IMG/VR virus record: IMGVR_UViG_3300045972_000138
Span: 127,513-191,512 of that record
Origin: a virus
Strand: one strand, 5' to 3'
Length of the DNA: 64,000 nt
Position 1 is the stretch's first letter; each line of letters starts with the position of its first letter. Position numbers and translations under genes: made by a program. Below, in pieces: positions 5,559 to 50,074 of the stretch. The notes below the pieces were generated by a model. That model was not told the origin of the DNA. It did no database searches and was given only the letters and a program-made list of their open reading frames with translations.

Positions 5559-5563
5559 AGCTG

Positions 5564-6628: not shown

Positions 6629-6641
6629 ATCTAAATACAAT

Positions 6642-26526: not shown

Positions 26527-27165
26527 ATGCCCCAAATTATGGTATGGCAATGCCCGTCAACAAAGAAATTGTTCATTGAGCAGGCAGAGTATAAAACTCA
26601 CCTTGCTAAACTTGCACGCGAACGTCGCAAGGTAAAGCACCACAATTATATTAAGTCTACATTCTTTGAATGGCTCGACGAAGAACGGTTGAAGATGGAT
26701 AGCATTGGCGATATGTCACAATGGTTGTTGGACAATCAACAGACTATTATGGATGCGGCCAATCTTATTCCTTGCGGAAATTGGTCCGACGATAAATTTC
26801 ACGATACTGATCGATTTCTTAAAATTGATTTTACTAGTCTACGTTGGAATCCAAGTATCTCCAATACCCATTCTTGCCCCAAAGGTGGAGTAACAAATTG
26901 GGCAGGTAAAGAACTGTTTGCCAATGGTTTACCAAAACCAAATGGATACCCCGGATGGGGTGGGCGGCTCGAAGGTAGTCTGAAACGCCTTAAGAAGCAT
27001 GACAATAACTATCCCTCAAGTGGATTTTTTAAGCTGGTGGGTCTTCATACTGGTACAGGTGGTGGTGGCAATACGAACTTTGGTTGGGACGTTAAAATCT
27101 TTGCCGAAGAATGGCCGGGCCCTGCAGCAGAGATGACTTTTAACAAGCTGAAAGCAACCGTTTGA
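26527..27165 (+). CDS. hypothetical protein (212 aa)
   Basis: Gly-rich C-terminus. Confidence 0.55.
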   Translation: MPQIMVWQCPSTKKLFIEQAEYKTHLAKLARERRKVKHHNYIKSTFFEWLDEERLKMDSIGDMSQWLLDNQQTIMDAANLIPCGNWSDDKFHDTDRFLKIDFTSLRWNPSISNTHSCPKGGVTNWAGKELFANGLPKPNGYPGWGGRLEGSLKRLKKHDNNYPSSGFFKLVGLHTGTGGGGNTNFGWDVKIFAEEWPGPAAEMTFNKLKATV

Positions 27166-27190
27166 CATATCAGCGATAGCACTACATAAT
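27162..27190 (+). promoter_or_regulatory. sigma70-like promoter TTGACA-N17-CATAAT
   Basis: upstream of 27227. Confidence 0.45.
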
Positions 27191-27226
27191 ACAAACATAT
27201 TAACTTTTTACACAGAAGGACTTAAA

Positions 27227-28330
27227 ATGGCAGCAGCAATTGATACAACCCGCACAGAACGCCCGCGCGACATTCGTACACTCGTTATTCGTTGTATGAA
27301 GGTTGGTCGTCCTCCGATGATCTGGGGACCTCCTGGCATCGGCAAGAGTGAACTGATTGCAGAAATTGGTGTGGAAATGAATCGCCCTGTTATCGATATG
27401 CGTTTGCTGTTGCTGGAACCTACTGACATCAAGGGTATTCCGTATTTCGATCCCGAAACCAAAACAATGAAGTGGGCACAACCTGCAGACTTGCCTACTG
27501 AGTTGAGCCTGAACAACGCAATTTTGTTCTTGGACGAAATCAATGCTGCACCTCCTAGCGTGCAGGCAGCAGCATATCAACTTATCCTTAACCGTCGCGT
27601 TGGTGAATATCGTTTGCCCGCAGGTGTTAGCATGATTTGCGCTGGTAACCGTGAAAGCGATAAGGGTGTTACTTACCGTATGCCAAGTCCGCTTGCTAAT
27701 CGTTTGGTCCACTTTGAAATGGCTTGCAACTTCGAAGACTGGCAAAAATGGGCTATTGCAAACCACGAACATGCTGACGTTGTTGGTTTCCTGAGCCACC
27801 ACAAGCACAAGCTCTTCAACTTTGATAGCAAGTCTCCCGACAAGGCATTCGCTACACCACGTAGCTGGCACTTTGTTAGCGAACTTATCGTCGATGATGG
27901 CTCGCTTACTGAATCGCTCAACACTACATTGGTGGCAGGTTCGGTTGGTGATGGCCTTGCAACAGAGTTCAGCCAACACCGTAAGGTTGCTTCCAAGATG
28001 CCTAAATCCGAAGATGTGCTGTTGGGCAAGGAAACTCAACTCAATGTCAAAGACTTGAGCGCAATGTACTCGCTTACCATCTCTATGTGCTACACACTCC
28101 AAGAATGGGTTGCACGCTCCAAGACTAAGGAAGATGGTTTTGATGTTGCTAAGTGGCATGAATGTGTTGATCACTTCTTCAAGTTCATGATGGCTAACTT
28201 CCAAACTGAAATGATCGTGCTTGGTGCTAAGACTGCACTGCGTGATTACCAACTGCCAATCAATCACCGTCAACTCAAAGAGTTCAAGGGCTTCCATGAC
28301 AAGTACGGTAAGTACATTCTGGAAGATTAA
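27227..28330 (+). CDS. MoxR-family AAA+ ATPase
   Basis: Walker A GPPGIGKS; Walker B LFLDEINAA; 367 aa. Confidence 0.8.
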   Translation: MAAAIDTTRTERPRDIRTLVIRCMKVGRPPMIWGPPGIGKSELIAEIGVEMNRPVIDMRLLLLEPTDIKGIPYFDPETKTMKWAQPADLPTELSLNNAILFLDEINAAPPSVQAAAYQLILNRRVGEYRLPAGVSMICAGNRESDKGVTYRMPSPLANRLVHFEMACNFEDWQKWAIANHEHADVVGFLSHHKHKLFNFDSKSPDKAFATPRSWHFVSELIVDDGSLTESLNTTLVAGSVGDGLATEFSQHRKVASKMPKSEDVLLGKETQLNVKDLSAMYSLTISMCYTLQEWVARSKTKEDGFDVAKWHECVDHFFKFMMANFQTEMIVLGAKTALRDYQLPINHRQLKEFKGFHDKYGKYILED

Positions 28331-28346
28331 TAGCAGGTGATACAGT

Positions 28347-28373
28347 GTAAGGGGCTACGGCCCCTTACCTTTT
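28347..28373 (+). terminator. rho-independent terminator
   Basis: TAAGGGGC-tacg-GCCCCTTA then CCTTTT. Confidence 0.5.
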
Positions 28374-28400
28374 GACATAAAATTAAATATAGTTTATAAT
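28372..28400 (+). promoter_or_regulatory. sigma70 promoter TTGACA-N17-TATAAT
   Basis: consensus hexamers; followed by conserved leader TAACTTTTAAGGATTATATG (28412-28431). Confidence 0.6.
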
Positions 28401-28428
28401 TAGATATCACTTAACTTTTAAGGATTAT

Positions 28429-28755
28429 ATGAAAGACGGTTTAATTTTTGGATTCAATGCAATAGTTGCTGTTATTGCACTGGTCTTCGGTATTGGTGCG
28501 TTGTCGTACGGTATGTACGCATATTTTGCACCAAAGTACACAGCAGTTGACAATCAGGTGTTCCACGAGTCGCAGCAATACAATGACGGAATGATCCGTG
28601 ATTTGGAAAACTTGCAAATGGAATATCTTAGCGCAGATGCTGACAAGAAGGATGCAATCCGCGCAATAGTGTTGCATCGCTTTAGTGTGTATCCGGAAGA
28701 TAAGATGCCGCCAAATCTCCGTAACTTTTACAATCAACTTAAATCTGGAAAGTAA
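28429..28755 (+). CDS. small membrane protein
   Basis: N-terminal TM LIFGFNAIVAVIALVFGIGALSY. Confidence 0.6.
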   Translation: MKDGLIFGFNAIVAVIALVFGIGALSYGMYAYFAPKYTAVDNQVFHESQQYNDGMIRDLENLQMEYLSADADKKDAIRAIVLHRFSVYPEDKMPPNLRNFYNQLKSGK

Positions 28756-28758
28756 ACA

Positions 28759-29265
28759 ATGAAATCTCTACTCAAACTCGCGGCACTTCTTAGCGTAGCA
28801 GCACTGGCGCTGTCTGGTTGTTACGAAGATAACAGCAGCCATGCCAAAGAAGCAGCACAGCAAGAACAGTTAAATCTGCAAGCAGTGCAGGCAGTCGGTA
28901 TGCCAGCTATTACTAATTTTGCCGAACGCCGTATGATGAAAGACATCCTGGAACTGCGCGATAAGGATGTGGCCACCACAACATACACTCGCGATATGAA
29001 TGGCCGTCTGCACAAGATTTGCGATAGCGTAGGATATGGATTGCCATACGCAACGCAATTCACCAATCCGCAGACTGAACACTATGTACCCGGATCGGCA
29101 GGTCATTGGTCAATCCTACCACAAGCTGACCCAAACGGTTTGTACAGCCCTGCGGCAGCAGAAGGCACGTGGGTGATGTGTGTTAATCATAAGACTGGCA
29201 AACCAGCACCTGTGTATATTGAAGATCGCGTAACTGTGTCTCCAATGGAACTTGAATCTAATTAA
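28759..29265 (+). CDS. lipoprotein
   Basis: signal peptide with lipobox LSGC. Confidence 0.6.
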   Translation: MKSLLKLAALLSVAALALSGCYEDNSSHAKEAAQQEQLNLQAVQAVGMPAITNFAERRMMKDILELRDKDVATTTYTRDMNGRLHKICDSVGYGLPYATQFTNPQTEHYVPGSAGHWSILPQADPNGLYSPAAAEGTWVMCVNHKTGKPAPVYIEDRVTVSPMELESN

Positions 29266-29283
29266 TTTAACTGAAAGATTATT

Positions 29284-30138
29284 ATGTCAGAACTCGTAGT
29301 ACAATCATCTGTTGATGAACAAAAGAAGCAGCAATTTATTACATACGCAAAATGGGGTGTGATTGTTGCGGCCTGTGCGGTAGCACTACCCGTGGTAGTG
29401 TTTGGTGCGCTGGGAATGGTAGGCATTATGATTGCCGGCGGCATCGGATTGGTTGGTATCAATGCAGCACCTGTTGTTGCGCTGAAGCTTGCTAATATGA
29501 AGTACCGCCTAATGGATGCTGAAAAAGTGCAGCACATTGAAAAAGTGCAGCAAGCGGCAGCAGAAAATCCGATTGAAACTGCGGTAACACAGTCGCAAGC
29601 GTTTAAGGCACGTGGGGTGAAACAACTCGAAGCTATTACTGCATACGGTACTGAAGTTAACAACTTCGAAACTATGGTTGCCGGATTTGCAAAGAAGTAC
29701 CCTGAGCAGGTAAATCGCTATAAACAGCAACTTGATGTAATGAAGCAAGCACTTCAATTCAAGCAAGACAAGTATTCTGAACTACAGAAGAATATTAAGA
29801 AGATGGACGAAGAAATCGAATTCTTGCGTGCCAACTGGAAGATGAGTCAAGCATTGCAAAAGGCTAATGCATTGGCTGGCATGGATACTGAAGATCCAAT
29901 GGCACAACTGAAAACTGACGCAGCAATTGACGCTGTGGTGAATTCAATCAACCGTGCGTTTGCTGAAATGGATTCTGCAGTGTTGTCTGATGCTGCACAA
30001 TCCGGTAAAGGTACTATCACAGGTCGTGCTACAATGCTTAACGATGCCCCTGGTATGCAAGCATTGGAAAACAATCCGTCACAGACATTGGGTCTTGTGA
30101 CAATGGAAACTGTATCACAAAAGAAAGTAGGTGCGTAA
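29284..30138 (+). CDS. membrane protein with coiled-coil region
   Basis: two TM helices near N-terminus; 284 aa. Confidence 0.6.
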   Translation: MSELVVQSSVDEQKKQQFITYAKWGVIVAACAVALPVVVFGALGMVGIMIAGGIGLVGINAAPVVALKLANMKYRLMDAEKVQHIEKVQQAAAENPIETAVTQSQAFKARGVKQLEAITAYGTEVNNFETMVAGFAKKYPEQVNRYKQQLDVMKQALQFKQDKYSELQKNIKKMDEEIEFLRANWKMSQALQKANALAGMDTEDPMAQLKTDAAIDAVVNSINRAFAEMDSAVLSDAAQSGKGTITGRATMLNDAPGMQALENNPSQTLGLVTMETVSQKKVGA

Positions 30139-31155
30139 ATGAAAAAGATTCTAGTAGCATTGGCTCTGTTTGCTGTAGCAGCATTCGCAGAACCATCATT
30201 TGAACAAATGCAAGAACTGATTGGCCAGAAGAACTATGCGGCTGCAGAACAGGGATTGGAAGTTATTCTCCAAGCACACCCAACTTCTGCCAAAGCATTC
30301 TACTCGATGTCGCAAGCACAGGCTGGACTTGGCCACCTGGATAAGGCACAGCTTGCACTAAACAAGGCACGCGGACTCGATCCTTCGCTGAAGTTTGCAA
30401 GCGAAGATAATATCAAGGCACTGGAGCAAGCAATTACTCCACAAGCGGCAAAGATTGAAGCAGTTGAGCCAAGTCACTTTTGGCGCAATTTGATTTTGGT
30501 GCTGATTGGTGTGATTGCAGGTGTTGCATTCTACTTCTATCGCAAGAAAGACAGGCCCGCTGATGAAAAGGTAATCTTCCCAACACCGCCTGATGCACAA
30601 CCAGCATATGACAGCCCTAGCGATAAGGCTTATATGGAAGAGCACAACTTGAATGATGCTATCAAAGAAAGCTACACACCAAAGAAGCGTGGTCGCCCTG
30701 CTAAGGTTACGCCAGCCCCTGTAGCAACACCGTCACCGTCTGCATATGTTCGTACATACACACCGGCACCTACTCCGGTGTATCAGGCGCCACCCCAGCC
30801 AGTTATTGTTAACAATAACAGTGGTAGCGATATGTTGACAGGTGTAATGATTGGCAGTATGATGAATAACAATCATCACGATCGCACAACGGTTATTGAA
30901 CGTGAAGTGATTGTGGAACGTCCGAGCCGCAGCACGTATGTGGCACCCGAGCCAGCATATGAAGCACCTGCACCGAGCCGTAGCAGTTCCTGGGATGATA
31001 CTCCTGCAAAGAGTTCAAGCTGGAACGATGATAGCTCTAGCAAGTCTAGCAGCTGGGGCAGTAGCTCAAGCAGCGATAGCAGCAGTAGCTGGTCTAGCAG
31101 CGATAGCAGCTCGTCGAGCAGCAGCGACAGCGGATCTTCTAGTAGCTGGGATTAA
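30139..31155 (+). CDS. secreted/membrane TPR-like protein with Ser-rich low-complexity tail
   Basis: signal peptide, TM helix LILVLIGVIAGVAFYFY, KKRGRPAKV motif, tail SSSWSSSDSSSSSSSDSGSSSSWD. Confidence 0.6.
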   Translation: MKKILVALALFAVAAFAEPSFEQMQELIGQKNYAAAEQGLEVILQAHPTSAKAFYSMSQAQAGLGHLDKAQLALNKARGLDPSLKFASEDNIKALEQAITPQAAKIEAVEPSHFWRNLILVLIGVIAGVAFYFYRKKDRPADEKVIFPTPPDAQPAYDSPSDKAYMEEHNLNDAIKESYTPKKRGRPAKVTPAPVATPSPSAYVRTYTPAPTPVYQAPPQPVIVNNNSGSDMLTGVMIGSMMNNNHHDRTTVIEREVIVERPSRSTYVAPEPAYEAPAPSRSSSWDDTPAKSSSWNDDSSSKSSSWGSSSSSDSSSSWSSSDSSSSSSSDSGSSSSWD

Positions 31156-31156
31156 T

Positions 31157-31414
31157 ATGGTATTCTTAGACTTGGTCGTAGCAGTATTAGTATTGTGCAT
31201 AATGATACTATTACTGACACAGGTAATAACACCTGTACTATTTGGAACACCGTTTTTCCCATTGTTCCGAAAATCCACAGAACTTAAAAAGGAAGTGGAT
31301 GCATTAGAGCTAACTCTCGAAGAAAAGGAAGAGTTAGTATTGTTGAAGATGAAACTTAGTAAATTAAAGGCTCGTGAAGCCGAACTTGAAAGTAAAGAAA
31401 ATGGCACAACTTAG
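31157..31414 (+). CDS. small membrane protein with coiled coil
   Basis: ATG 31157 two nt after upstream stop; TM MVFLDLVVAVLVLCIMILLL. Confidence 0.4.
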   Translation: MVFLDLVVAVLVLCIMILLLTQVITPVLFGTPFFPLFRKSTELKKEVDALELTLEEKEELVLLKMKLSKLKAREAELESKENGTT

Positions 31415-32636
31415 TATCTCCCCTAAACGCACTATTATCGCAGCAGCGTCTGCAATTGGTGCATTGTTTCTAATCATCTTTGTGGTGTTCTTGTTCAAGA
31501 ATGTCGATGCAAAGGATTATGTGGTTATCCAGGCACCAATCAGCGGTGAGCTGTCAGTTCATACAGACGGTGGATGGAAGTGGCAAGGTATGGGCAAGTC
31601 CCAAACTTATCACCGACGTGACCAGTTCAGCTTTAGCAATAAAGTTGATCAAGGTAAAGCAGGTGACGAATCCATTAGCACACGGTTTAACGATGGCGGC
31701 CACGGTAACATTTCTGGTACAGTGAATTGGCAAATGCCCGCAAGTCCAGACTTGATTATCAAGTTGCACAAAGACTTCGGTAGCATGGATGCAATTGAAC
31801 AACAATTGATTCGTCCTGCAATGCAAAAGGTTATCTACAATGTAGGCCCAACAATGTCCTCAACAGAATCTAGTGCTGAAAAGCGTCCTGAGATTCCAAA
31901 GTATATCGACGACCAACTTGTTAACGGTCCTTACTTGACTAAGACTGTTAATGTTACGCAAAAGGATGCAATCTCCGGGCAAGACAAAGTTGTTCCGGTA
32001 GTGCAAATTGCGTTGAATGACAAAGGTCAACCGATGCGTGAAAGCAAGTCGCAGATCACCGAATACGGCATTGTTTTGCAACCTGTAGCAATCAATGCAA
32101 TCGTGTACGACACTGTAGTTGAAGATCAGATTAAACAGCGTCAAACTGCAACTACGCAAGTACAGATTTCTATTGCTAATGCACGTAAGGCTGAACAGGA
32201 AGCAATTACTACAGAACAGCAAGGTAAGGCCAATGCCGCTAAAGCTAAGTGGGAACAGGAAACAGTGAATGCAAAGGATGTTGCATTGGCTGAAAAGGAA
32301 CTGCAAGTTGCTACATTGGCCGCAAAGACTGCTGAACAATCAAAACGTGAAAACATCTTGATTGGTGAAGGTGAAGCTGCTCGTAAGCGTCTGGTAATGG
32401 AAGCTAACGGTGCGTTGGATGCTAAGTTAGCTGCATATGTGGATGTAAACAAGGCCTATGCCGAAGCTATCTCCAAAGCACAACCTGGCGCATGGTCTCC
32501 ACAAGTTGTAATGGGTGGCGGAGCAAGCGGTGCTAACACATCTAACTCGCTTATCGAAATGCTGACTGCTAAGACAGCTCGCGAACTCGGAGTTGATATG
32601 TCAGTTATCAAGGGCAATACCGCTAAAACTAAGTAA
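31374..32636 (+). CDS. SPFH/band-7 (HflK/C, flotillin-like) membrane protein
   Basis: N-terminal TM, SPFH-like core, long Ala/Glu/Lys coiled coil; GTG start. Confidence 0.65.
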   Translation: MKPNLKVKKMAQLSISPKRTIIAAASAIGALFLIIFVVFLFKNVDAKDYVVIQAPISGELSVHTDGGWKWQGMGKSQTYHRRDQFSFSNKVDQGKAGDESISTRFNDGGHGNISGTVNWQMPASPDLIIKLHKDFGSMDAIEQQLIRPAMQKVIYNVGPTMSSTESSAEKRPEIPKYIDDQLVNGPYLTKTVNVTQKDAISGQDKVVPVVQIALNDKGQPMRESKSQITEYGIVLQPVAINAIVYDTVVEDQIKQRQTATTQVQISIANARKAEQEAITTEQQGKANAAKAKWEQETVNAKDVALAEKELQVATLAAKTAEQSKRENILIGEGEAARKRLVMEANGALDAKLAAYVDVNKAYAEAISKAQPGAWSPQVVMGGGASGANTSNSLIEMLTAKTARELGVDMSVIKGNTAKTK

Positions 32637-32656
32637 GACTATTATCGGTAGACATT

Positions 32657-32693
32657 AAAGCCCATACTGCTATAATACGCATATGGGCTTTTT
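32657..32693 (+). terminator. rho-independent terminator; loop holds a TGCTATAAT extended -10
   Basis: 10-bp stem AAAGCCCATA/TATGGGCTTT then TTT. Confidence 0.6.
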
Positions 32694-32716
32694 AACACAC
32701 AGAAACGGAGTTATAT

Positions 32717-33814
32717 ATGGGTAAGATTATTGGTTCGGTAGCATTCCTTATTGCTATTATTGTTGGTGGTTACTTTGCTGATCCGGGGTTCCACGAAAAG
32801 GTTAACGGTATGCTGGGCAAAGGTGGTGCACAGGTTTCTGCCGTGCGTACTACGCAAACAGAACCAACTGCGTGGGAAGCAAAGAAAGGTTCTACACTGT
32901 CTAACATCATCGATAGCGGTGTGGTACATGCAAGCGTACAGGATCCTAGCAAGCCGTTCTACTACAAAGAAGGCGCACGTGCCAAAGGTTTCAATGTTGA
33001 CTTTATGAACATCTTGTTCGCTCAAAACGAATTCAGAACCAAGGTGGGAATTAAAGTTGAAGCAAGTGCAGTGGATTCGTATCCCGATGTACCGAAGCAA
33101 TTGCTTGATGGTAAGAAGGTTGATATTGCAATTGACGGCCTTACATTCAATGATGAAGACTTGAAGGGTGTGAAGTACACAATTCCTTATGTGAAGGACT
33201 TTGGTTACGCACTAATTACTCCTAAAGGTGTAAATGTAAACAATGTTGCTGACTTGGCTGGTGCAAAGGTTGGTATCATTAAAGGCGATCCGGATGTAAA
33301 ATCCTTTGTCGAAGGTGCTTTTCCTGGTGCTACTATTGTTGAAGTGTCTGACAAAGCAGACGAATCCGGCAAGTTTATTGCAGGCCACTTTAAAGCACAT
33401 CGTATCGACGCAATGGTTTATGACTATCCGTTTGCTGTAGCAGAAGTTGAAGGCACTAACCTGCAGTTTGCAATGACAAAGATCAAAGGTAGCGACATCC
33501 AGTATCGCATTGGTGTACGTGACGAAGATAAGGACTTGTTGGCAGCATTGAACGGTGCTATCCGTAAGGCAATGGATACGCCCGAATATACAGAAATGCT
33601 GAAACAATACTTTATGAGCAACAGTGTTGCGGCTGTACGCCGTGCAAGTTCCGGTGAAGTTAGCTATGTAGTGGTTAAGGGCGACACACTGAGCACTATT
33701 GCAGCATCGCAACTTGGTGACTTGAAGCGTTATCCGGATATCCAGGCACGTAATAACTTGGCCAACCCCAACTTTATTGCAGTTGGACAAAAGTTGATTA
33801 TTCCTAGCAAGTAA
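32717..33814 (+). CDS. solute-binding-protein-like domain fused to C-terminal LysM
   Basis: N-terminal TM; SBP_bac_3-like core; C-terminal YVVVKGDTLSTIAASQLGD...GQKLIIP LysM. Confidence 0.65.
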   Translation: MGKIIGSVAFLIAIIVGGYFADPGFHEKVNGMLGKGGAQVSAVRTTQTEPTAWEAKKGSTLSNIIDSGVVHASVQDPSKPFYYKEGARAKGFNVDFMNILFAQNEFRTKVGIKVEASAVDSYPDVPKQLLDGKKVDIAIDGLTFNDEDLKGVKYTIPYVKDFGYALITPKGVNVNNVADLAGAKVGIIKGDPDVKSFVEGAFPGATIVEVSDKADESGKFIAGHFKAHRIDAMVYDYPFAVAEVEGTNLQFAMTKIKGSDIQYRIGVRDEDKDLLAALNGAIRKAMDTPEYTEMLKQYFMSNSVAAVRRASSGEVSYVVVKGDTLSTIAASQLGDLKRYPDIQARNNLANPNFIAVGQKLIIPSK

Positions 33815-33817
33815 TTG

Positions 33818-33846
33818 TTGACTGCCCCTAAGGCCCGTGTTACAAT
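33818..33846 (+). promoter_or_regulatory. sigma70-like promoter TTGACT-N17-TACAAT
   Basis: upstream of rtcB ATG 33884 with AAGG RBS. Confidence 0.5.
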
Positions 33847-33883
33847 AATATGTAACGCGGGCTTTATTCTATTTAAGGTATAT

Positions 33884-35077
33884 ATGGAAATCAATAATGT
33901 AAAAATGTGGGTAGGTGATATGGAAGTTGAAGAAGCTGCTATTCAGCAGATTATGAATATTTCCCAATTGCCTATTCTTGCCGGACATATGGCTATTATG
34001 CCAGACGTTCATATGGGCAAGGGTGCAACAGTTGGTTCTGTTATTCCTACACGTTCCGCTATTATTCCTGCCGCAGTAGGTGTGGATATTGGTTGCGGTA
34101 TGATTGCTGCAATGACAAACCTTAAGGCAGAAGATCTTCCAACATCATTGTTCTCCTTGCGTAATGCAATTGAACGTGATGTACCTGTAGGCTTCAACGA
34201 GCACGACAAGGGTATCCCTTCTGTGTCGGGTCCTTATGCAGATATCCTGCGTAAGAATCTACGCAAGACAATGGATGACTTCGATACACTAACATTGAAG
34301 AAGAATTTGGGTCGTGCTGACGAAAAGAAGATTGCACGCCAGATTGGTACGCTAGGTGGCGGTAACCACTTTATCGAAATTTGTCTTGATACACAAAATC
34401 GTGTGTGGATTATGCTGCACTCTGGATCACGTGGCATCGGTAACCAAATTGGTACAGTTGCAATTGAACTGGCAAAGGAACAGGCTGCAAAGCGTGCATG
34501 GGGTCTCCCAGATCAGGATCTTGCTTGGTTGGATGAAGGCACACCGGAATTCGAAGCCTACATTGAAGCTATGCATTGGGCGCAGGATTATGCACGTTTC
34601 AATCGCGACACAATGATGAACTTGGTTGTGGCAGCAATGCTGCGTAAGTTTCCTACAATGAAGATTTTGGGCGAAGTGGTAAACTGCCATCACAACTTTA
34701 CAAGCCTGGAAGAACACTTTGGTACAAAGATGTGGATTACTCGTAAGGGTGCTGTATCTGCTAAACAAGGGCAAATGGGTATTATTCCTGGTTCGATGGG
34801 TGCTAAGTCGTTTATTGTGCAAGGCAAGGGTAATCACGATTCGTACTGCTCTTGCTCACACGGCGCAGGCCGCAAAATGAGCCGTAATCAGGCGAAAAAA
34901 CTGTTCGACGTTGCAGCTATGGAAGCGCAGACGCAAGGCATCGAGTGCCGCAAGGACTCGGGTGTTATTGACGAGATTCCTGCAGCATACAAAGACATCG
35001 ATCAAGTTATGGCAGCACAATCTGAATTGGTTGATGTAGTGCATACGCTGAAGCAGGTGCTCTGCGTTAAAGGTTAA
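33884..35077 (+). CDS. rtcB: RNA-splicing ligase RtcB
   Basis: VKMW...MPDVHMGKGATVGSVIPT...AAVGVDIGCGM, GGGNHFIEI, CSCSHGAGRKMSR; start at internal ATG 33884. Confidence 0.9.
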   Translation: MEINNVKMWVGDMEVEEAAIQQIMNISQLPILAGHMAIMPDVHMGKGATVGSVIPTRSAIIPAAVGVDIGCGMIAAMTNLKAEDLPTSLFSLRNAIERDVPVGFNEHDKGIPSVSGPYADILRKNLRKTMDDFDTLTLKKNLGRADEKKIARQIGTLGGGNHFIEICLDTQNRVWIMLHSGSRGIGNQIGTVAIELAKEQAAKRAWGLPDQDLAWLDEGTPEFEAYIEAMHWAQDYARFNRDTMMNLVVAAMLRKFPTMKILGEVVNCHHNFTSLEEHFGTKMWITRKGAVSAKQGQMGIIPGSMGAKSFIVQGKGNHDSYCSCSHGAGRKMSRNQAKKLFDVAAMEAQTQGIECRKDSGVIDEIPAAYKDIDQVMAAQSELVDVVHTLKQVLCVKG

Positions 35078-35078
35078 T

Positions 35079-35297
35079 ATGCAACGCTGGGGACCTACCT
35101 TGTGGTTGTTTAGCAAAGAAGAGTTTGATAAACTACCTAACGGATTTGTACTGACATCAATAAATGGTACGAAGAAGACCAAAGGTGTCGATAGTATAGA
35201 TACAGATGTAAGGTGGGGCCATATTGCATGGGGTGTAGAAGATCCAATGAATCACCCCGAAGCTGAATTATTCACAGTGTTTAGATTGGAAGCATAA
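35079..35297 (+). CDS. hypothetical small protein
   Basis: ATATGC junction; 72 aa. Confidence 0.35.
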   Translation: MQRWGPTLWLFSKEEFDKLPNGFVLTSINGTKKTKGVDSIDTDVRWGHIAWGVEDPMNHPEAELFTVFRLEA

Positions 35298-35473
35298 TGG
35301 AAGATATTGATAAGACACACGCCACCCTTGTTTATGGATTGTGCGAAAAGTGCAACATAAATACTGGTACAGAAGGCCATACCTGCCCCTATGCAGAAGA
35401 TATTAACGGAGACTATCTGTCGGAATGCAATTGCTGCGATAGTTGCTGCAAAGATTGTGCAGACGACATTTAA
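35297..35473 (+). CDS. Cys-rich mini-protein (58 aa)
   Basis: CEKC...CPY...CNCCDSCCKDC; not in ORF track. Confidence 0.3.
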   Translation: MEDIDKTHATLVYGLCEKCNINTGTEGHTCPYAEDINGDYLSECNCCDSCCKDCADDI

Positions 35474-35477
35474 TCAG

Positions 35478-35506
35478 TTGACTAGACAAAAGTTTAGTCA
35501 TATAAT
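35478..35506 (+). promoter_or_regulatory. sigma70 promoter TTGACT-N17-TATAAT
   Basis: consensus; upstream of 35533. Confidence 0.6.
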
Positions 35507-35532
35507 AAACAAATAAACAAAAGAGGTTTTTA

Positions 35533-36732
35533 ATGGCCATTGATACATCGCCCGAAGCAGTGCTAGAACAACTAACTCGCGCACGAATTTCTTTGTTGTT
35601 GCAACAACCTTTCTGGGGCACACTTGCAACACGTCTTATTTTGAAAGACGCCACTGAAGAAGATTGGTGCCCAACAGCGGCAACAAACGGCAGATACTTT
35701 TACTACAATCGTAATTTTATCTCCAAACTCAACAAGCAAGAATGCATCTTCCTTGTAGCGCACGAAGTTGAACACTGTGTTTACGATCACATGGATCGTC
35801 GTGGTGGTCGTGCAGCAAAACGCTGGAATGCAGCAGCAGACTACGTTATCAATTATGAACTGCATGAATACAACATTGGTAAGATTCCAGATCCAAAGAC
35901 ATCTGGTGTACAGGCCTGCTTTGATCCAAAGTACAAAGGAATGTTTGCTGAAGAAGTATACGAACAACTTACAGACGATCAAAAGTTTCCAGAGTTCGAT
36001 GTTCACCTGGAGCCAGGTGATGGCAAGGGTGATCCGATGTCGGAAGACGAACAGCGCGAATTGAGCGATGAAATCCGTAATGCCGTTATGCAGGCAGCAA
36101 AGAGCGCAGGTGCTGGCAAGGTTCCTGCAGGTGTGCGTCGTATGCTCAAGGATCTTACCGAACCACAAATGGATTGGCGTGAAATCTTGAATATGAAGAT
36201 TCAATCTATGGTTAAGAGCGACTTTACCTGGGATCGTTGCTCGCGTAAGATGCAGAGCACTGGTATCTATTTGCCATCAACAAAGAATGACTTCAAGGCT
36301 CGTGCAGCAGTAGCAATCGATGCATCCGGATCTATGGGCGATAATATGTTGCGTGATTTGCTTGGCGAAACCAAAGGCATCATGGAACAGTTCAACGATT
36401 TTGAACTTGATGTGTGGACATTTGATACAAAGGTATACAACCCTGTACGTTTCACACCCGACAATATTGATGAAATCGATACATACGATATTAAGGGCGG
36501 CGGTGGTACTGACTTTGATGTCAACTTTGCTTACATGAAGGAAGCTGGGTTGGAACCAGAACGCTTTATTATGATGACAGACGGATACCCTTGCGGTAGC
36601 TGGGGCGACGAATTTTACTGCGATACATTGTTCCTTATCCACGGTGACCCACATCACAAGTTAGTTGCACCGTTTGGTATGACAGCATGGTACGAACCAG
36701 ATAGTCATTCACCGCAAAACAAGAAGAAATAA
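35533..36732 (+). CDS. VWA-domain protein with N-terminal HExxH metallopeptidase-like domain
   Basis: VAHEVEHCVYDH; MIDAS motif AIDASGSMGD; probable partner of MoxR ATPase. Confidence 0.7.
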   Translation: MAIDTSPEAVLEQLTRARISLLLQQPFWGTLATRLILKDATEEDWCPTAATNGRYFYYNRNFISKLNKQECIFLVAHEVEHCVYDHMDRRGGRAAKRWNAAADYVINYELHEYNIGKIPDPKTSGVQACFDPKYKGMFAEEVYEQLTDDQKFPEFDVHLEPGDGKGDPMSEDEQRELSDEIRNAVMQAAKSAGAGKVPAGVRRMLKDLTEPQMDWREILNMKIQSMVKSDFTWDRCSRKMQSTGIYLPSTKNDFKARAAVAIDASGSMGDNMLRDLLGETKGIMEQFNDFELDVWTFDTKVYNPVRFTPDNIDEIDTYDIKGGGGTDFDVNFAYMKEAGLEPERFIMMTDGYPCGSWGDEFYCDTLFLIHGDPHHKLVAPFGMTAWYEPDSHSPQNKKK

Positions 36733-36733
36733 T

Positions 36734-37012
36734 ATGAGTTTTCTACTACCAACCAACGAAGAGTTTGTTGAAGAAGTAGCCAAAGCATTAGGCAGAGACA
36801 GGCTATTCAGGGATGCCTCTGACCTAATGAAATCTAAGCTAGGTGTTACACTCAAAGAAACCGAGTCACTTGATGCACGGTTTGATGGTGTGTTCGAACA
36901 GCTTTGGGCCGGTGATGACGAAGAAGCCGAATGGAATAGAGAAAACTATAAGGCAGATGCCCTTACAGCTATCAACAAGATTAATCTTCTATTACTCACA
37001 ATGGTAAATTAA
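36734..37012 (+). CDS. hypothetical protein (92 aa)
   Basis: ORF. Confidence 0.5.
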   Translation: MSFLLPTNEEFVEEVAKALGRDRLFRDASDLMKSKLGVTLKETESLDARFDGVFEQLWAGDDEEAEWNRENYKADALTAINKINLLLLTMVN

Positions 37013-37037
37013 AGGTAAATACATTAAGGGCAACTTA

Positions 37038-37310
37038 ATGTATCAAACCTCATTATTTTTTAGAATAAAAAACAGTAGCACGGCATTTGAAAAGTACCGT
37101 ATTATTGAGTACTTCTTTAAATATTGGGTAGACGATACCTGCAACAATGAAGTTGATTACAGTGTAGAATCTGTATCAACTGCCAGCATAGATTCACGTA
37201 AGCTAGAAGAATTAGTTAGAGTGGATTTCGAACACATTGAAGATGCAGTCGCTATAAAGCTAAAAGGTGTCCCACGAGAATACCAACCATATATTGAAAT
37301 AGTAGGTTGA
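37038..37310 (+). CDS. hypothetical protein (90 aa)
   Basis: ORF. Confidence 0.45.
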   Translation: MYQTSLFFRIKNSSTAFEKYRIIEYFFKYWVDDTCNNEVDYSVESVSTASIDSRKLEELVRVDFEHIEDAVAIKLKGVPREYQPYIEIVG

Positions 37311-37335
37311 CCTACTATGTCTATGGTTATATAAT
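37307..37335 (+). promoter_or_regulatory. sigma70-like promoter TTGACC-N17-TATAAT
   Basis: upstream of 37367. Confidence 0.45.
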
Positions 37336-37987: not shown

Positions 37988-38012
37988 AAAAAGCCCCGCA
38001 AGGGGCTTTTTT
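37986..38012. terminator. bidirectional rho-independent terminator
   Basis: AAAAAAGCCCC-gcaa-GGGGCTTTTTT between convergent HNH and iscA. Confidence 0.8.
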
Positions 38013-38331
38013 ATATCCGGAAACTTTCTCCACACCCACATCGGTCGCGCTCATTAGGATTATTGAATTTAAATCCTTCATTCAACCCTTCGCGTACATA
38101 GTCTATCTCCATTCCCTGTAGGTATGCACAGCTCTTTGGATCAACAAATAGTTTACATTCTTTGCAATCTATACACAGATCTTCATCTTGTGCTGCATCT
38201 ACATATTCTAGTACATATGCGAGCCCACTACATCCTGTAGTTTTAACACCCAATCTTATACCTGTCCCTTTGCCACGCTTTACAATTACCTGCTGAATTT
38301 TCCTTGCTGCCTTATCAGTTAGTGTCAGCAT
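38011..38331 (-). CDS. iscA: A-type Fe-S cluster carrier IscA
   Basis: LGVKTTGCSGLAYVLEYVD and C-terminal CGCGESF; close to enterobacterial IscA. Confidence 0.85.
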   Translation of the reverse strand: MLTLTDKAARKIQQVIVKRGKGTGIRLGVKTTGCSGLAYVLEYVDAAQDEDLCIDCKECKLFVDPKSCAYLQGMEIDYVREGLNEGFKFNNPNERDRCGCGESFRI

Positions 38332-38701
38332 GTTTTGCCCTATAATCCGCTACAGCAGCCTTGATAGCATCTTCTGCCAAAATCGAGCAATGAATCTTAA
38401 CGGGTGGAAGTGCAAGTTCTTCGGCAATTTCACTGTTCTTAAGACTTCCTGCTTGATCAAGTGTTTTTCCTTTAACCCATTCTGTGACGAGCGATGAACT
38501 AGCAATAGCGGATCCGCATCCGTATGTTTTGAATTTTGCATCTTGAATTACTCCATTAACTACTTTAATTTGTAGTTTCATTACGTCGCCACACGCAGGC
38601 GCGCCGACCATGCCTGTGCCTACGTCTTCATCTCCCTTATCAAAGGAGCCCACGTTACGTGGATTTTCATAGTGATCTATAACTTGTTGTGAATATGCCA
38701 T
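38315..38701 (-). CDS. iscU: Fe-S cluster scaffold IscU
   Basis: MAYSQQVIDHYENPRNVGSF, GAPACGDVMKLQI, KTYGCGSAIASSSLVTEWVKGK, PPVKIHCSILAEDAIKAA; near-identical pattern to E. coli IscU. Confidence 0.9.
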   Translation of the reverse strand: MAYSQQVIDHYENPRNVGSFDKGDEDVGTGMVGAPACGDVMKLQIKVVNGVIQDAKFKTYGCGSAIASSSLVTEWVKGKTLDQAGSLKNSEIAEELALPPVKIHCSILAEDAIKAAVADYRAKHADTN

Positions 38702-47676: not shown

Positions 47677-47925
47677 CGTGATAAATAATAGTGCGTATAA
47701 TGCATTAAAAGGATAAATATGGACACAATTGAACACATACAACTTTTGATTGCAGAATTATGGACCAATTGGGATTTTGTGGCACCCGTGCTAGTCCCTA
47801 TTGCATATTTTCTTAACTAATAACCCTGGCGTTCGTTCAACGGATAGGACATCTTTCTTCTAAAGAGATAATAGTGGTTCGATTCCACTACGCCGGACCA
47901 ATTTTTAAACCACCAAGGACTTAAA

Positions 47926-48150
47926 ATGGAAATGACTAAAGTGTATGCCGCTCCCATTCTTGCAGAAGAAATGATTGCTTTGCGTGCAATCGACGCGTCT
48001 AACGCAGAACTTCGCGCACGGAATGAGGCACGCCTTTTTGAATTCAAGGAGTCGATGGGTATCAAGTATCTGTTGCATCCCGACAACGCACCAAAGCGTC
48101 AAGAATATGTTCACGTGCTGACGCACAAAAAAGAAACTATCAACGAGTAA
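47926..48150 (+). CDS. hypothetical protein (74 aa)
   Basis: RBS AAGGAC. Confidence 0.5.
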   Translation: MEMTKVYAAPILAEEMIALRAIDASNAELRARNEARLFEFKESMGIKYLLHPDNAPKRQEYVHVLTHKKETINE

Positions 48151-48153
48151 TAC

Positions 48154-48354
48154 GTGAACGACTTAGTTACGCTGAAAAACATTCTAGCCGTTTTAATTGA
48201 AAACGGCGTACACAACGAAGTAACACAGCTCGATAATGCTGTGCTCTTCGAGGGTGTTCCGCAGAATGTAATATACAAGGATGATTTGGTTGCAGCAGGT
48301 GCAACTTATGATTCAAACTTCGAAGCCTGGATGTTTTGGGGCAACGAAGAGTAA
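48154..48354 (+). CDS. hypothetical protein (66 aa)
   Basis: ORF. Confidence 0.45.
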   Translation: MNDLVTLKNILAVLIENGVHNEVTQLDNAVLFEGVPQNVIYKDDLVAAGATYDSNFEAWMFWGNEE

Positions 48355-48398
48355 AGCACGCAACTCTGATAAATAACATTATTGGAGTCGAATGCTTT

Positions 48399-48956: not shown

Positions 48957-49021
48957 CATAAAGGTAGTGCCGAGAACTCATAATTCTTAAGGTCCGGGTT
49001 CGATCCCCGGGGCTCGCACCA
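48947..49021 (+). tRNA. tRNA-Met (anticodon CAT; elongator or Ile-lysidine type), CCA encoded
   Basis: Hand-folded cloverleaf: acceptor GCGAGTT/GGCTCGC, U8, D-loop GG, anticodon loop CTCATAA, T-arm CCGGG-TTCGATC-CCCGG, G1-C72. Confidence 0.75.
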
Positions 49022-49053
49022 AAGCATCTTTCCCTAATCTTAGAAAGACACAC

Positions 49054-49260: not shown

Positions 49261-49363
49261 TCAACTAAGGGCCGTGCTCTAACATTCCAACGATTCGCCT
49301 ACTTCGGTATATTCCAATGGTACGCGGCTGTAAATATATGTTGGTTGATAAAGGTGGCTACCG

Positions 49364-50055: not shown

Positions 50056-50074
50056 AAATAGATCTAAGGATTAT

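What the first reader, a model, noticed from the sequence alone, without database searches (positions are those of the whole stretch)
27227..36732. MoxR AAA+ ATPase and its VWA/metallopeptidase-domain partner split by a 7-kb membrane module (SPFH, lipoprotein, Ser-rich TPR protein, SBP-LysM, RtcB)
MoxR (27227-28330) normally sits next to a VWA protein, but here the VWA-MIDAS/HExxH protein is at 35533-36732. In between are a small TM protein, a lipoprotein, a two-TM coiled-coil protein, a signal-peptide/TPR/TM protein with an SSSWSSSDSSSS tail and a KKRGRPAKV AT-hook-like motif, a small TM protein, an SPFH/band-7 protein and a TM-anchored solute-binding-like domain fused to LysM. Several membrane-scaffold and periplasmic proteins in one block suggest a phage-built envelope complex, for superinfection exclusion, lysis timing or DNA-entry control, possibly chaperoned by the MoxR/VWA pair.
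Basis: inference. Interest (0 to 1): 0.55.

Follow-up and report, generated by a model that had tools for sequence, protein, structure and literature searches.

The report
Modular phage envelope-protein cassette island
A jumbo phage carries a self-contained 5.5-kb block of seven membrane and periplasmic protein genes, built around a gene pair borrowed from Burkholderiales bacteria, and this block merely sits in a variable slot between a known chaperone pair (MoxR ATPase and peptidase-vWA) rather than working with it.

Summary
All described ORFs, domains and motifs are at the stated coordinates.

The MoxR-like AAA+ ATPase and the metallopeptidase-vWA protein are a conserved backbone pair, already described in group 2.2 jumbo phages. 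In about 40 related contigs the space between them runs from 82 bp to 9 kb and holds unrelated, mostly soluble cargo. It is an insertion hot spot. RtcB is separate cargo.

The seven envelope genes (28429-33814) do form a real, recurring module that does not depend on MoxR/vWA.
- Its core is a pair: a TM-hairpin coiled-coil protein ("CC284") and a membrane-anchored SBP_bac_3-LysM protein.
- This pair is adjacent in Burkholderiales chromosomes and in many phages.
- Phages nest other envelope cassettes between or beside the two genes: a TPR-TM-Ser-rich protein, a small TM protein plus SPFH, a small TM protein plus lipoprotein, and a 73-aa TM protein.
- One related phage has CC284-TPR-TM-SPFH-SBP-LysM at a different genome position.
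- In the window the block has a perfect sigma-70 promoter match upstream and a strong hairpin after it.

Function is inferred, not shown. The most likely role is an envelope-stabilising scaffold, because relatives pair the TPR protein with PspA. Superinfection exclusion is the main rival.

The parts
27162..27190 (+). sigma-70-like promoter match (11/12) upstream of the MoxR-like gene
27227..28330 (+). MoxR-like AAA+ ATPase (backbone gene, not part of the envelope module)
   Evidence: Pfam AAA_5, PHROG 1297. Walker A and B present. 51-85% identical orthologues in 47 IMG/VR loci.
28372..28400 (+). perfect sigma-70 consensus promoter match (TTGACA-17-TATAAT) at the head of the envelope module
   Evidence: An equivalent 12/12 match lies upstream of CC284 in L166.
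28429..28755 (+). TM108: small bitopic membrane protein, partner of the lipoprotein
   Evidence: PHROG 26268. Adjacent to a Lipo168 homologue in 45 of 49 viral loci. Same PHROG as phi3626 Gp44.
28759..29265 (+). Lipo168: exported lipoprotein of a large uncharacterised phage family
   Evidence: Lipobox LSGC. 2904 homologues, no Pfam match, invariant Cys and motifs GLPYATQYTNP / LPQADPNGLYSP. PHROG 24725, the family of phi3626 Gp45.
29284..30138 (+). CC284: TM hairpin plus long helical (probably cytoplasmic) domain; first gene of the core pair
   Evidence: 574 clusters at 50% identity. Found upstream of SBP-LysM in every full-length homologue locus examined, phage and bacterial.
30139..31155 (+). 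TPR338: signal peptide, periplasmic TPR, TM, Pro-rich then Ser/Asp-rich tail
   Evidence: Homologues sit next to PspA_IM30 genes in L015, L020 and L036, and between CC284 and SBP-LysM in L165, L166 and L176.
31157..31414 (+). TM85: small N-terminal-TM protein; its 3' end overlaps the SPFH start
   Evidence: A small TM ORF directly precedes SPFH in 35 of 45 viral SPFH loci. 81% identical in L166.
31374..32636 (+). SPFH/Band-7 protein with a positively charged N-terminus and one TM (HflK/C-like topology inferred)
   Evidence: Pfam Band_7 E 4e-9, PHROG 11908. Flanking charges. 97% identical in L166.
32649..32676 (+). internal sigma-70-like promoter match (11/12, TG-extended) upstream of SBP-LysM
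   Evidence: counterpart in L166
32717..33814 (+). SBP-LysM: membrane-anchored periplasmic SBP_bac_3 domain plus LysM; last gene of the core pair
   Evidence: Pfam. 325 homologues with the same architecture. Weak MltF N-terminal-domain match.
33829..33866 (+). 16-bp-stem hairpin followed by a T-rich tract (terminator-like) that closes the module
33884..35077 (+). RtcB RNA ligase (ORF opens at TTG 33815; likely start ATG 33884); separate cargo
   Evidence: Pfam E 7e-128. Its position varies among relatives.
35079..35297 (+). s72: small ORF that travels with RtcB
   Evidence: 62% identical homologue directly after RtcB in L015
35297..35473 (+). s58: Cys-rich small ORF that precedes DUF2201 in many relatives (backbone)
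35533..36732 (+). Metallopeptidase (HExxH) plus vWA (MIDAS) protein, the conserved partner of the MoxR-like ATPase
   Evidence: Pfam DUF2201_N plus DUF2201. Motifs. 812 phage records. Pair described in PMC7824862.

Best explanation
The interval is a mosaic of three separate things.

(1) Backbone pair. The MoxR-like ATPase and the peptidase-vWA protein (with its small Cys-rich neighbour s58) are a conserved jumbo-phage chaperone pair. The space between them is an insertion hot spot.

(2) RtcB (with s72) is independent RNA-repair cargo.

(3) Bases 28372-33866 are a self-contained envelope module.
- Its core is a two-gene unit native to Burkholderiales chromosomes. CC284 is held in the inner membrane by a TM hairpin, with a long helical domain probably in the cytoplasm. 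SBP-LysM is anchored in the inner membrane, with a ligand-binding and a peptidoglycan-binding domain in the periplasm.
- Phages have captured this pair and nest further envelope cassettes in or beside it: TPR-TM-Ser-rich protein, small TM plus SPFH, small TM plus lipoprotein.

Inferred mechanism, not shown. The module is transcribed by host RNA polymerase from its own consensus promoter. Its products assemble a scaffold that ties the cytoplasmic face of the inner membrane (CC284, the TPR338 tail, the TM85 coiled coil) to the periplasm and cell wall (SPFH domain, TPR, SBP-LysM, lipoprotein). This keeps the infected cell's membrane intact and energised until programmed lysis. That is the role that PspA plus the TPR protein, and SPFH, appear to play in related phages.
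For: Shown by tool results:
- Hot spot. In about 40 loci with MoxR 51-85% identical, the MoxR-to-DUF2201 distance is 82 bp (L017, L019) to 8978 bp (L038). None of these gaps holds a module gene, and only L027 holds RtcB. Gap cargo is mostly soluble: DUF7487 proteins, paralogue arrays and a 1358-aa ORF. The two genes are adjacent in phage Phosso; PA5oct has 3 small ORFs and a homing endonuclease between them.
- Core pair in bacteria. CC284 is followed by SBP_bac_3-LysM in Burkholderiales MAGs and in Burkholderia seminalis, with unrelated metabolic neighbours.
- Core pair in phages. It is found in L055, L105, L106, L173-L175 and L179, with nested variants: TM108-Lipo168 in L056, L167 and L168; TPR in L165 and L176; TPR-TM85-SPFH in L166.
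- Mobility. In L166 the flanks match genes from 49-63 kb of the window, so the block has moved as a unit.
- Sub-cassettes recur on their own. TM108 plus Lipo168 in 45 of 49 viral loci; a small TM ORF before SPFH in 35 of 45.
- Cross-links. The CC284-family protein P0322 carries the same Ser-rich tail as TPR338. P0343 and P0386 fuse CC284 to an extra hydrophobic segment and a ~330-aa domain. A TM108-like gene follows SPFH in L120 and L121.
- Transcription signals. A 12/12 promoter match heads the block, an 11/12 TG-extended match precedes SBP-LysM, and a 16-bp hairpin follows it. The same promoter pattern occurs in L166. PA5oct uses host RNA polymerase with TTGAC/TATAATA promoters (PMC7318152).

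Support for the inferred mechanism:
- TPR338 homologues are immediately followed by PspA_IM30 genes in L015, L020 and L036 (Pfam E 2e-13 for L015 and 7e-35 for L020; L036 gene identified by tblastn, 73% identity to the L015 PspA).
- The window has no PspA.
- The module contains an SPFH protein.
Against: - No experiment or significant homology assigns a function to CC284, TM108 or Lipo168.
- CC284 is not detectably PspA-like: hhalign probability 0.3%, and Foldseek top hits to Vipp1/PspA are not significant (E 0.07-0.25, TM 0.2-0.34).
- Topologies rest on hydropathy and the positive-inside rule only.
- Patchy presence among close relatives, and alternative cassettes at one locus in Thalassavirus, look more like arms-race genes than housekeeping.
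- The MoxR/vWA pair lies within a few kb of related membrane genes in three lineages: the window and L165; phiRSL1 ORF091-101; and N4-like PG11, L069, L084 and L096. A looser association is therefore not fully excluded.
- Consensus promoter and terminator matches are not evidence of function.
Confidence: 0.55

Rival explanations
1. Superinfection exclusion or anti-competitor module. The exported lipoprotein pair, the peptidoglycan-binding SBP-LysM and the membrane scaffolds alter the envelope, so that later phages cannot digest the wall or deliver DNA. This would be functionally like T4 Imm/Spackle or T5 Llp.
For: - All products are directed to the envelope.
- The genes are accessory and patchy among close relatives.
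- In Thalassavirus, the small-TM plus SPFH pair (River4) and the TM108 plus Lipo168 pair (Gary) are alternatives at one locus. This pattern is typical of conflict islands.
- The Lipo168 family is very widespread in phages, including phages of Gram-positive and cyanobacterial hosts.
- A strong host-type promoter match heads the block.
Against: - The core pair sits in ordinary bacterial chromosomal contexts with no phage genes nearby.
- No PADLOC match, and no similarity to known exclusion proteins.
- 60-78% identity of Lipo168 across very different phages is unlike fast-evolving receptor blockers.
Confidence: 0.25
2. One reading: one envelope complex whose assembly is chaperoned by the flanking MoxR ATPase and peptidase-vWA protein.
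For: - Physical flanking in the window.
- L165 has the module next to RtcB and DUF2201.
- phiRSL1 has an AAA_5 ATPase and a DUF2201_N/vWA protein three genes upstream of a CC284-like gene, TM proteins and an SBP-like protein.
- N4-like phages have TM108 plus Lipo168 homologues 1-5 kb from the pair.
Against: - About 40 relatives have the pair without any module gene.
- At least 9 phage loci and all bacterial loci have the module without the pair within 8-10 kb.
- The module has its own promoter and terminator matches.
- The PA5oct ATPase was detected in virion preparations (note). The pair has been proposed to act in virion assembly (PMC7824862).
- Proximity is expected fairly often by chance in 70-kb N4-like genomes.
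Confidence: 0.07
3. Lysis function. TM108 plus Lipo168 act as an i-spanin/o-spanin pair, and the rest of the block tunes lysis timing.
For: The gene architecture matches a separated two-component spanin: a bitopic inner-membrane protein followed 3 bp later by a lipoprotein with a lipobox.
Against: - The same two families are adjacent in Clostridium phage phi3626 (Gp44 and Gp45), whose host has no outer membrane.
- The Gary homologue has a signal peptide but no lipobox.
- River4, a close relative of Gary, lacks the pair.
- The lipoprotein is duplicated in tandem in several loci.
- Very high sequence conservation is atypical of spanins.
- No holin or endolysin lies in the block.
Confidence: 0.06
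4. Chance accretion: unrelated morons that happen to encode membrane proteins, with no functional coherence.
For: - The slot is a hot spot with random cargo in relatives.
- Each sub-cassette occurs alone elsewhere.
Against: - The same cassettes repeatedly nest between the same two bookend genes in different phages.
- Fusion proteins link the families.
- Seven consecutive envelope proteins stand against a background of about 7%.
Confidence: 0.07

Closest known systems
MoxR AAA+ plus metallopeptidase-vWA chaperone/co-chaperone pair of group 2.2 jumbo phages (Iyer et al. 2021, PMC7824862)
   Same: Same two domain architectures: an AAA_5/MoxR-like ATPase, and an HExxH peptidase with a vWA domain carrying MIDAS. 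Same phage group (best matches PA5oct, Phosso, Atu_ph07, RaK2-like). The two genes are adjacent or nearly adjacent in most relatives.
   Different: Here the two genes are 7.2 kb apart because cargo has been inserted. Nothing indicates a different function.
Bacterial SPFH operons (HflK/HflC; NfeD-SPFH pairs such as YbbJ-QmcA and YqiJ-YqiK)
   Same: An SPFH protein with an N-terminal membrane anchor, preceded by and overlapping a small membrane-protein gene. The pairing is conserved in 35 of 45 phage loci.
   Different: The small partner has one TM and a coiled coil, with no NfeD/OB-fold match. The SPFH protein has no phmmer match to any solved SPFH structure.
Phage-shock (Psp) membrane-stress systems: PspA/IM30 with membrane-anchor partners. 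The B. subtilis PspA-YdjGHI system, which includes an SPFH protein, is cited from my own knowledge.
   Same: In related phages the TPR-TM-Ser-rich protein is encoded directly before a true PspA_IM30 gene, with SPFH a few kb away. In the window a membrane-anchored helical protein (CC284) occupies the neighbouring position.
   Different: The window has no PspA. CC284 fails the sequence and profile tests for PspA, and the structural resemblance is not significant.
MltF-type modular cell-wall proteins (SBP_bac_3-like regulatory module joined to a peptidoglycan-directed module)
   Same: An orphan SBP_bac_3 domain with no transporter genes nearby, joined to a peptidoglycan-directed module. Weak NCBIfam match to the MltF N-terminal region (E 3.8e-4).
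   Different: The second module is a LysM binding domain, not a lytic transglycosylase. The anchor is a TM helix, not a lipid.
Phage superinfection-exclusion envelope proteins (T4 Imm/Spackle, T5 Llp, P22 SieA)
   Same: Small, phage-encoded inner-membrane, periplasmic or lipoprotein products, encoded as accessory genes.
   Different: No sequence similarity and no PADLOC hit. The core pair also occurs in bacterial chromosomes outside prophages.
Two-component spanins (Rz/Rz1 type, separated architecture)
   Same: Gene order and topology of TM108 plus Lipo168.
   Different: Homologous pair in a phage of a Gram-positive host; dispensable among close relatives; a large, highly conserved globular lipoprotein.

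Membership tests
MoxR-like AAA+ ATPase (AAA_5 / AAA_3) | AAA+ core with Walker A and Walker B | tested here: met
   GPPGIGKS at residue 34 and ILFLDE at residue 99. Pfam AAA_5 28 bits, above the cut-off of 22.
MoxR-like AAA+ ATPase (AAA_5 / AAA_3) | Match to the MoxR-proper model (Pfam AAA_3) above its gathering score | tested here: inconclusive
   24.6 bits against a cut-off of 27. Assigned to MoxR by Iyer et al. for orthologues.
MoxR-like AAA+ ATPase (AAA_5 / AAA_3) | Genomic partnership with a vWA protein | tested here: met
   Adjacent or near-adjacent to the DUF2201 gene in about 40 related loci and in Phosso.
DUF2201 metallopeptidase-vWA co-chaperone | DUF2201_N and DUF2201 domains above cut-off, HExxH, MIDAS DxSxS | tested here: met
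   128.8 and 42.4 bits; HEVEH at residue 77 and DASGS at residue 263.
SPFH / Band 7 | Band_7 domain above the gathering score, with an N-terminal membrane anchor | tested here: met
   37.1 bits against a cut-off of 23.6; hydrophobic segment at residues 18-47.
SPFH-NfeD operon | Partner protein with an NfeD (OB-fold) domain | tested here: not met
   TM85 has no Pfam, NCBIfam or PHROG match. The pairing itself is conserved.
PspA / IM30 / ESCRT-III (tested for CC284) | Sequence or profile similarity to PspA_IM30 | tested here: not met
   No PspA_IM30 among the families listed for the 36 members scanned; hhalign against the phage PspA profile gives probability 0.3%.
PspA / IM30 / ESCRT-III (tested for CC284) | ESCRT-III-like helical hairpin fold | tested here: inconclusive
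   AF2 model has mean pLDDT 65, with a confident hairpin at residues ~100-190. Vipp1/PspA are the top Foldseek hits, but with E 0.07-0.25 and TM 0.2-0.34.
Two-component spanin (tested for TM108 plus Lipo168) | Bitopic inner-membrane protein gene followed by a lipoprotein gene | tested here: met
Two-component spanin (tested for TM108 plus Lipo168) | Confined to phages of hosts with an outer membrane, and needed for lysis | tested here: not met
   Homologous pair Gp44/Gp45 in Clostridium phage phi3626. Absent from River4 although present in its relative Gary.
ABC-transporter solute-binding protein (tested for SBP-LysM) | SBP_bac_3 fold | tested here: met
   54.5 bits against a cut-off of 26.4.
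ABC-transporter solute-binding protein (tested for SBP-LysM) | Encoded with permease and ATPase genes | tested here: not met
   In most loci examined with gene calls, phage or bacterial, no transporter genes lie beside it; the conserved neighbour is CC284. The one exception is L169, where ABC-transporter genes lie upstream on the opposite strand, without conservation in other loci.
RtcB RNA ligase | Full-length RtcB domain | tested here: met
   E 7e-128, model positions 1-426 of 426.
Known anti-phage or exclusion systems | Match to a PADLOC model | tested here: not met
   Only weak matches (E 6.7e-5 to 8e-3, 13.5-20 bits) to three AAA-ATPase models for MoxR and two coiled-coil models (PD-Lambda-1, JetC) for CC284, read as generic domain or coiled-coil resemblance; nothing for the other eight proteins.
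Known anti-phage or exclusion systems | Exclusion phenotype | not testable with these tools
   Needs infection assays.

The most novel reading that the evidence does not exclude
CC284 plus SBP-LysM is an undescribed trans-envelope two-protein system of Burkholderiales. It would link a cytoplasmic coiled-coil scaffold to a periplasmic sensor or anchor that binds peptidoglycan or muropeptide. Phages have captured it repeatedly and use it as a docking platform, plugging in interchangeable envelope effectors: SPFH cage, PspA-partner TPR protein, exported lipoprotein. CC284 would then act as a membrane-anchored functional analogue of PspA. This would be a new, modular way for large phages to take over host envelope-stress management.
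Probability: 0.3. Interest if true: 0.65.

Novelty: new variant of a known kind. Interest (0 to 1): 0.45.

Why it matters
- It corrects an attractive but wrong inference. The MoxR/vWA pair is a known backbone chaperone whose intergenic slot collects cargo, so adjacency there carries no functional meaning.
- It defines a testable, portable 5.5-kb envelope module. The module holds three protein families with no annotation: CC284 (about 570 clusters at 50% identity), the Lipo168 family (about 2900 homologues) and its TM partner.
- These families are abundant in the IMG/VR and metagenome contigs recovered here and, for CC284, also occur in Burkholderiales genomes.
- If the module stabilises or shields the envelope of infected cells, it would show how jumbo phages keep a host alive and exclusive through long infections.
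- It would also give a first handle on the bacterial CC284/SBP-LysM pair.

Tried and rejected
- Near-identical DNA in GenBank phages: none found.
- Lipo168 structure: the AF2 model was poor (pLDDT 59) and Foldseek gave only noise. Not used.
- CC284: a profile search against PDB sequences and Pfam scans of 36 members gave only generic coiled-coil noise. Foldseek against PDB was not significant. The afdb50 library was unavailable. hhalign against phage PspA was negative, so "CC284 is a PspA homologue" is rejected as membership and kept only as a possible analogy.
- PADLOC: nothing useful.
- SPFH against PDB sequences: no hit.
- AT-hook idea: the motif is shared with only 1 of 5 homologues. Rejected as a family feature.
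- Foreign-origin signal in base composition: the block is 44.7% GC against 40.9% elsewhere, but MoxR, RtcB and DUF2201 are equally high. Uninformative.
- S-SRM01 "membrane protease subunit" next to the TM108/Lipo168 pair as a mini-SPFH: pairwise E 0.037 and no Pfam match. Left open.
- Exact look-up of the source contig: failed.
- Literature searches: no paper on phage SPFH modules or on the SBP_bac_3-LysM architecture.

Full report
**1. What is in the sequence**

The window looks like part of a jumbo-phage genome.
- Nearly all genes are on one strand, and there are four tRNA genes at 47.8-51.6 kb.
- There is no near-identical DNA in GenBank phages.
- The best protein matches are to PA5oct, Phosso, Atu_ph07 and RaK2-like jumbo phages.

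- MoxR-like AAA+ ATPase, 27227-28330. Pfam AAA_5. Walker A is GPPGIGKS and Walker B is ILFLDE.
- TM108, 28429-28755.
- Lipo168, 28759-29265, with lipobox LSGC.
- CC284, 29284-30138. It has a hydrophobic hairpin at residues ~18-67 and is otherwise all-helical.
- TPR338, 30139-31155. It has a signal peptide, a TPR unit, a TM segment, the motif PKKRGRPAKV and a 62%-Ser tail.
- TM85, 31157-31414.
- SPFH, 31374-32636.
- SBP_bac_3+LysM with an N-terminal anchor, 32717-33814.
- RtcB, 33815/33884-35077.
- Two small ORFs.
- DUF2201_N+DUF2201 protein, 35533-36732, with HEVEH and DASGS.

A simple hydropathy rule marks seven consecutive genes as membrane or exported proteins. The background is about 6 of 91 other ORFs.

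**2. MoxR and the vWA protein are a backbone pair, and the space between them is a hot spot**

A scan of IMG/VR with the ATPase returned 47 loci at 51-85% identity.

Mapping all window proteins onto these loci shows a conserved order: w20350, w24916, w26527, MoxR, [gap], (s58), DUF2201, d92, d90, HNH, w39661 and onward.

The gap behaves as follows:
- It ranges from 82 bp (L017, L019) to 8978 bp (L038), with a median near 770 bp.
- No gap contains a homologue of TM108, Lipo168, CC284, TPR338, TM85, SPFH or SBP-LysM.
- L027, a close relative (MoxR 85%, DUF2201 82%, RtcB 88% identical), has only RtcB and s58 there.
- The cargo of other gaps is heterogeneous and mostly soluble. It includes DUF7487 proteins, arrays of small paralogues, a 1358-aa ORF and reverse-strand gene sets.

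In the cultured phages, the two genes are adjacent in Phosso. In PA5oct they are separated by three small ORFs and a homing endonuclease.

The pair has already been described for group 2.2 jumbo phages as a chaperone/co-chaperone predicted to act in virion assembly (PMC7824862). The PA5oct ATPase carries the record's mass-spectrometry (ESI-MS/MS) note marking it as detected in virion preparations.

The "split" is therefore an insertion of cargo and not a functional sandwich.

**3. RtcB is separate cargo**

- In L012, L013, L015, L022, L034 and L040, RtcB lies 8-10 kb upstream of MoxR. In L027 and the window it lies in the gap.
- s72 follows RtcB in L015.
- s58 precedes DUF2201 in many relatives.
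- A 16-bp-stem hairpin followed by a T-rich tract (33829-33866) separates SBP-LysM from RtcB.

**4. The seven envelope genes are a real module built from nested cassettes**

(a) TM108 plus Lipo168
- They are adjacent in 45 of 49 viral loci found with Lipo168. The genomic backgrounds are otherwise unrelated, and the lipoprotein is sometimes duplicated in tandem.
- The Lipo168 family has about 2900 homologues and no Pfam domain. It has an invariant lipid-Cys, two further conserved Cys and long invariant motifs.
- The same two PHROG families are adjacent in Clostridium phage phi3626 (Gp44/Gp45), Synechococcus phage S-SRM01, Vibrio Thalassavirus Gary and N4-like PG11.

(b) TM85 plus SPFH
- A small ORF with an N-terminal TM segment directly precedes the SPFH gene in 35 of 45 viral SPFH loci.
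- In the window's relatives this pair lies 7-8 kb upstream of MoxR.

(c) CC284 plus SBP-LysM
- The two are always found together, with CC284 first.
- They are directly adjacent in Burkholderiales MAGs and in Burkholderia seminalis DSM 23518. Their neighbours there are unrelated metabolic or transport genes (purB, a TonB-dependent receptor, ABC and CLC transporters, aldehyde dehydrogenases), so these are not prophage contexts.
- They are also adjacent in phage contigs L106, L107, L173-L175 and L179.
- A 73-76-aa TM ORF lies between them in L055/L177 and L105.
- TM108-Lipo168 lies between them in L056/L178, L167 and L168.
- TPR lies between them in L176, and the 73-aa ORF plus TPR in L165. L165 then continues RtcB, 68-aa ORF, DUF2201 (RtcB 92% and DUF2201 87% identical to the window), making it the closest relative in this region.
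- The 73-aa ORF, TPR, TM85 and SPFH lie between them in L166.
- The flanks of L166 match genes from 49-63 kb of the window, with no MoxR, RtcB or DUF2201 nearby. The block has therefore moved as a unit within this phage group.
- SPFH is 97% identical between the window and L166, while its neighbours are 63-81% identical.

(d) Links between the families
- The CC284-family protein P0322 ends in the same Ser-rich, aromatic-punctuated tail as the TPR338 family.
- P0343 and P0386 fuse CC284 to an extra hydrophobic segment and a ~330-aa domain of unknown type.
- A TM108-like gene follows SPFH in L120 and L121.
- In Thalassavirus, the small-TM plus SPFH pair (River4) and the TM108 plus Lipo168 pair (Gary) are alternatives at the same locus.

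(e) Transcription signals
- A perfect TTGACA-17-TATAAT match lies in the 98-bp gap before TM108.
- An 11/12 TG-extended match lies before SBP-LysM, and the hairpin lies after it.
- L166 has a perfect match before CC284 and a TG-extended one before SBP-LysM.
- PA5oct depends on host RNA polymerase and uses TTGAC/TATAATA promoters.
- These are consensus matches only, and they do not fix the timing of expression.

**5. What it probably does**

Nothing here is shown experimentally.

Topology, inferred from hydropathy and flanking charges:
- CC284 has both termini in the cytoplasm.
- The SPFH protein has a basic N-terminus, so its domain is periplasmic, as in HflK/C.
- SBP-LysM is periplasmic on a TM anchor.
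- TPR338 has a periplasmic TPR and a cytoplasmic tail.
- TM85 is N-out with a cytoplasmic coiled coil.
- Lipo168 is exported and lipidated.

The strongest functional hint comes from relatives. In L015, L020 and L036 the TPR-TM-Ser-rich protein is immediately followed by a true PspA_IM30 gene, with SPFH a few kb away. The window has no PspA. Instead its TPR gene lies between CC284 and TM85-SPFH.

SPFH and PspA proteins are established membrane-organising and membrane-repair factors. An SBP_bac_3 module joined to a peptidoglycan-directed module recalls MltF (weak match).

I therefore favour a trans-envelope scaffold that preserves membrane and cell-wall integrity and energisation in the infected cell. 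I give this about 0.35-0.4 for the mechanism itself and about 0.85 for the architecture.

Superinfection exclusion is the main rival, at about 0.25. It fits the patchy, swap-prone distribution, but not the ordinary chromosomal location of the core pair.

A spanin role for TM108/Lipo168 is unlikely, because the pair occurs in a phage of a Gram-positive host, is dispensable among close relatives, and is very highly conserved.

**6. Comparison with what is known**

- The MoxR/vWA pair: already known.
- RtcB: ordinary.
- SPFH with a small TM partner: resembles NfeD-SPFH operons, but the partner is not NfeD.
- CC284: not a detectable PspA homologue.
- No PADLOC model matches convincingly; only weak, generic hits for the AAA ATPase and the coiled-coil protein.
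- I found no paper describing the CC284/SBP-LysM pair, the Lipo168 family or phage SPFH modules.

The bookend-with-nested-cassettes organisation and three unannotated families are the new elements. They are built from familiar domain types, so I rate this a new variant of a known kind.

**7. Caveats**

- Synteny was assessed with tblastn on loci limited to ±8-10 kb, so small, fast-evolving ORFs can be missed.
- ORF calls in high-GC bacterial loci are rough.
- The MoxR/vWA pair lies within a few kb of related membrane genes in phiRSL1 and in N4-like phages. I read this as weak and probably coincidental, but it is not excluded as a loose association.
- It is unknown whether MoxR lies upstream of the module in L165, because both contigs end there.

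Noticed in passing
window 38011-38701 (- strand): A phage-encoded iron-sulphur cluster assembly pair on the opposite strand. It is an IscU/NifU_N-like scaffold (38315-38701, E 8e-52) followed by an IscA/Fe-S_biosyn protein (38011-38331, E 3e-21). This is an auxiliary metabolic pair inside the otherwise + strand backbone.
   Followed up: partly
L015 5510-7309; L020 1973-4034; L036 4008-5934: Relatives of this phage encode a true PspA/IM30 protein directly after the TPR-TM-Ser-rich protein, a few kb upstream of MoxR. The window has no PspA.
   Followed up: yes
window 30139-31155 (tail from residue ~281); P0322; L007 ORF100: A Ser/Asp-rich C-terminal tail with periodic W/Y (SSSW...SSSWD) is conserved in all TPR-TM homologues. 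It recurs on a CC284-family fusion protein, and in miniature on phiRSL1 ORF100. A conserved motif, PVIVNN..SGSDMLTGMMIGEM, precedes it. Its function is unknown.
   Followed up: partly
L007 (Ralstonia phage phiRSL1) 1745-8909: AAA_5 ATPase ORF091 and DUF2201_N/vWA ORF092 are followed, three genes later, by CC284-like ORF096, two small TM ORFs, a Lar-like protein, a TM plus Ser-rich ORF and a signal-peptide NMT1_3 binding protein. This is an arrangement analogous to the window module, in an unrelated jumbo phage of a Burkholderiales host.
   Followed up: partly
L003 (River4) 5736-7140 versus L005 (Gary) 5444-6405: In closely related T5-like Vibrio phages the same locus holds either a 52-aa TM ORF plus SPFH, or a TM108-like plus Lipo168-like pair. 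These are mutually exclusive alternatives.
   Followed up: partly
window 31374-32636 versus L166 10322-11575: The SPFH protein is 97% identical between the window and L166, although adjacent genes are only 63-81% identical. This suggests recent exchange of the SPFH gene alone.
   Followed up: no
L015, L018, L024, L025, L028, L035, L037, L052 gaps between MoxR and DUF2201: A recurrent 320-370-aa protein starting ...HKCxNxxCxN...KDKYGNY.RYCSxEC (Pfam DUF7487 where tested, in L015 and L018) occupies the hot spot in many relatives, on either strand. In PA5oct a 'putative homing endonuclease' sits in the same slot, though I did not compare it with these proteins. The behaviour is that of a mobile, homing-type gene and may explain the plasticity of the slot.
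   Followed up: partly
window 27162-37335: All promoter-like matches scoring 11/12 or better are on the + strand, and five of the six lie in intergenic gaps directly upstream of genes (MoxR, TM108, SBP-LysM, DUF2201, HNH). This is consistent with a phage dependent on host RNA polymerase, like PA5oct.
   Followed up: partly
window 47826-51593: Four tRNA genes (Arg-TCT, Met-CAT, Leu-TAA, Thr-TGT) are clustered downstream of the region.
   Followed up: no
P0343, P0386 (CC284-family long forms): Proteins of 567-574 aa that join the CC284 module to an extra hydrophobic segment and a ~330-aa beta-rich domain with no Pfam match. This may be a fused periplasmic partner replacing SBP-LysM.
   Followed up: no
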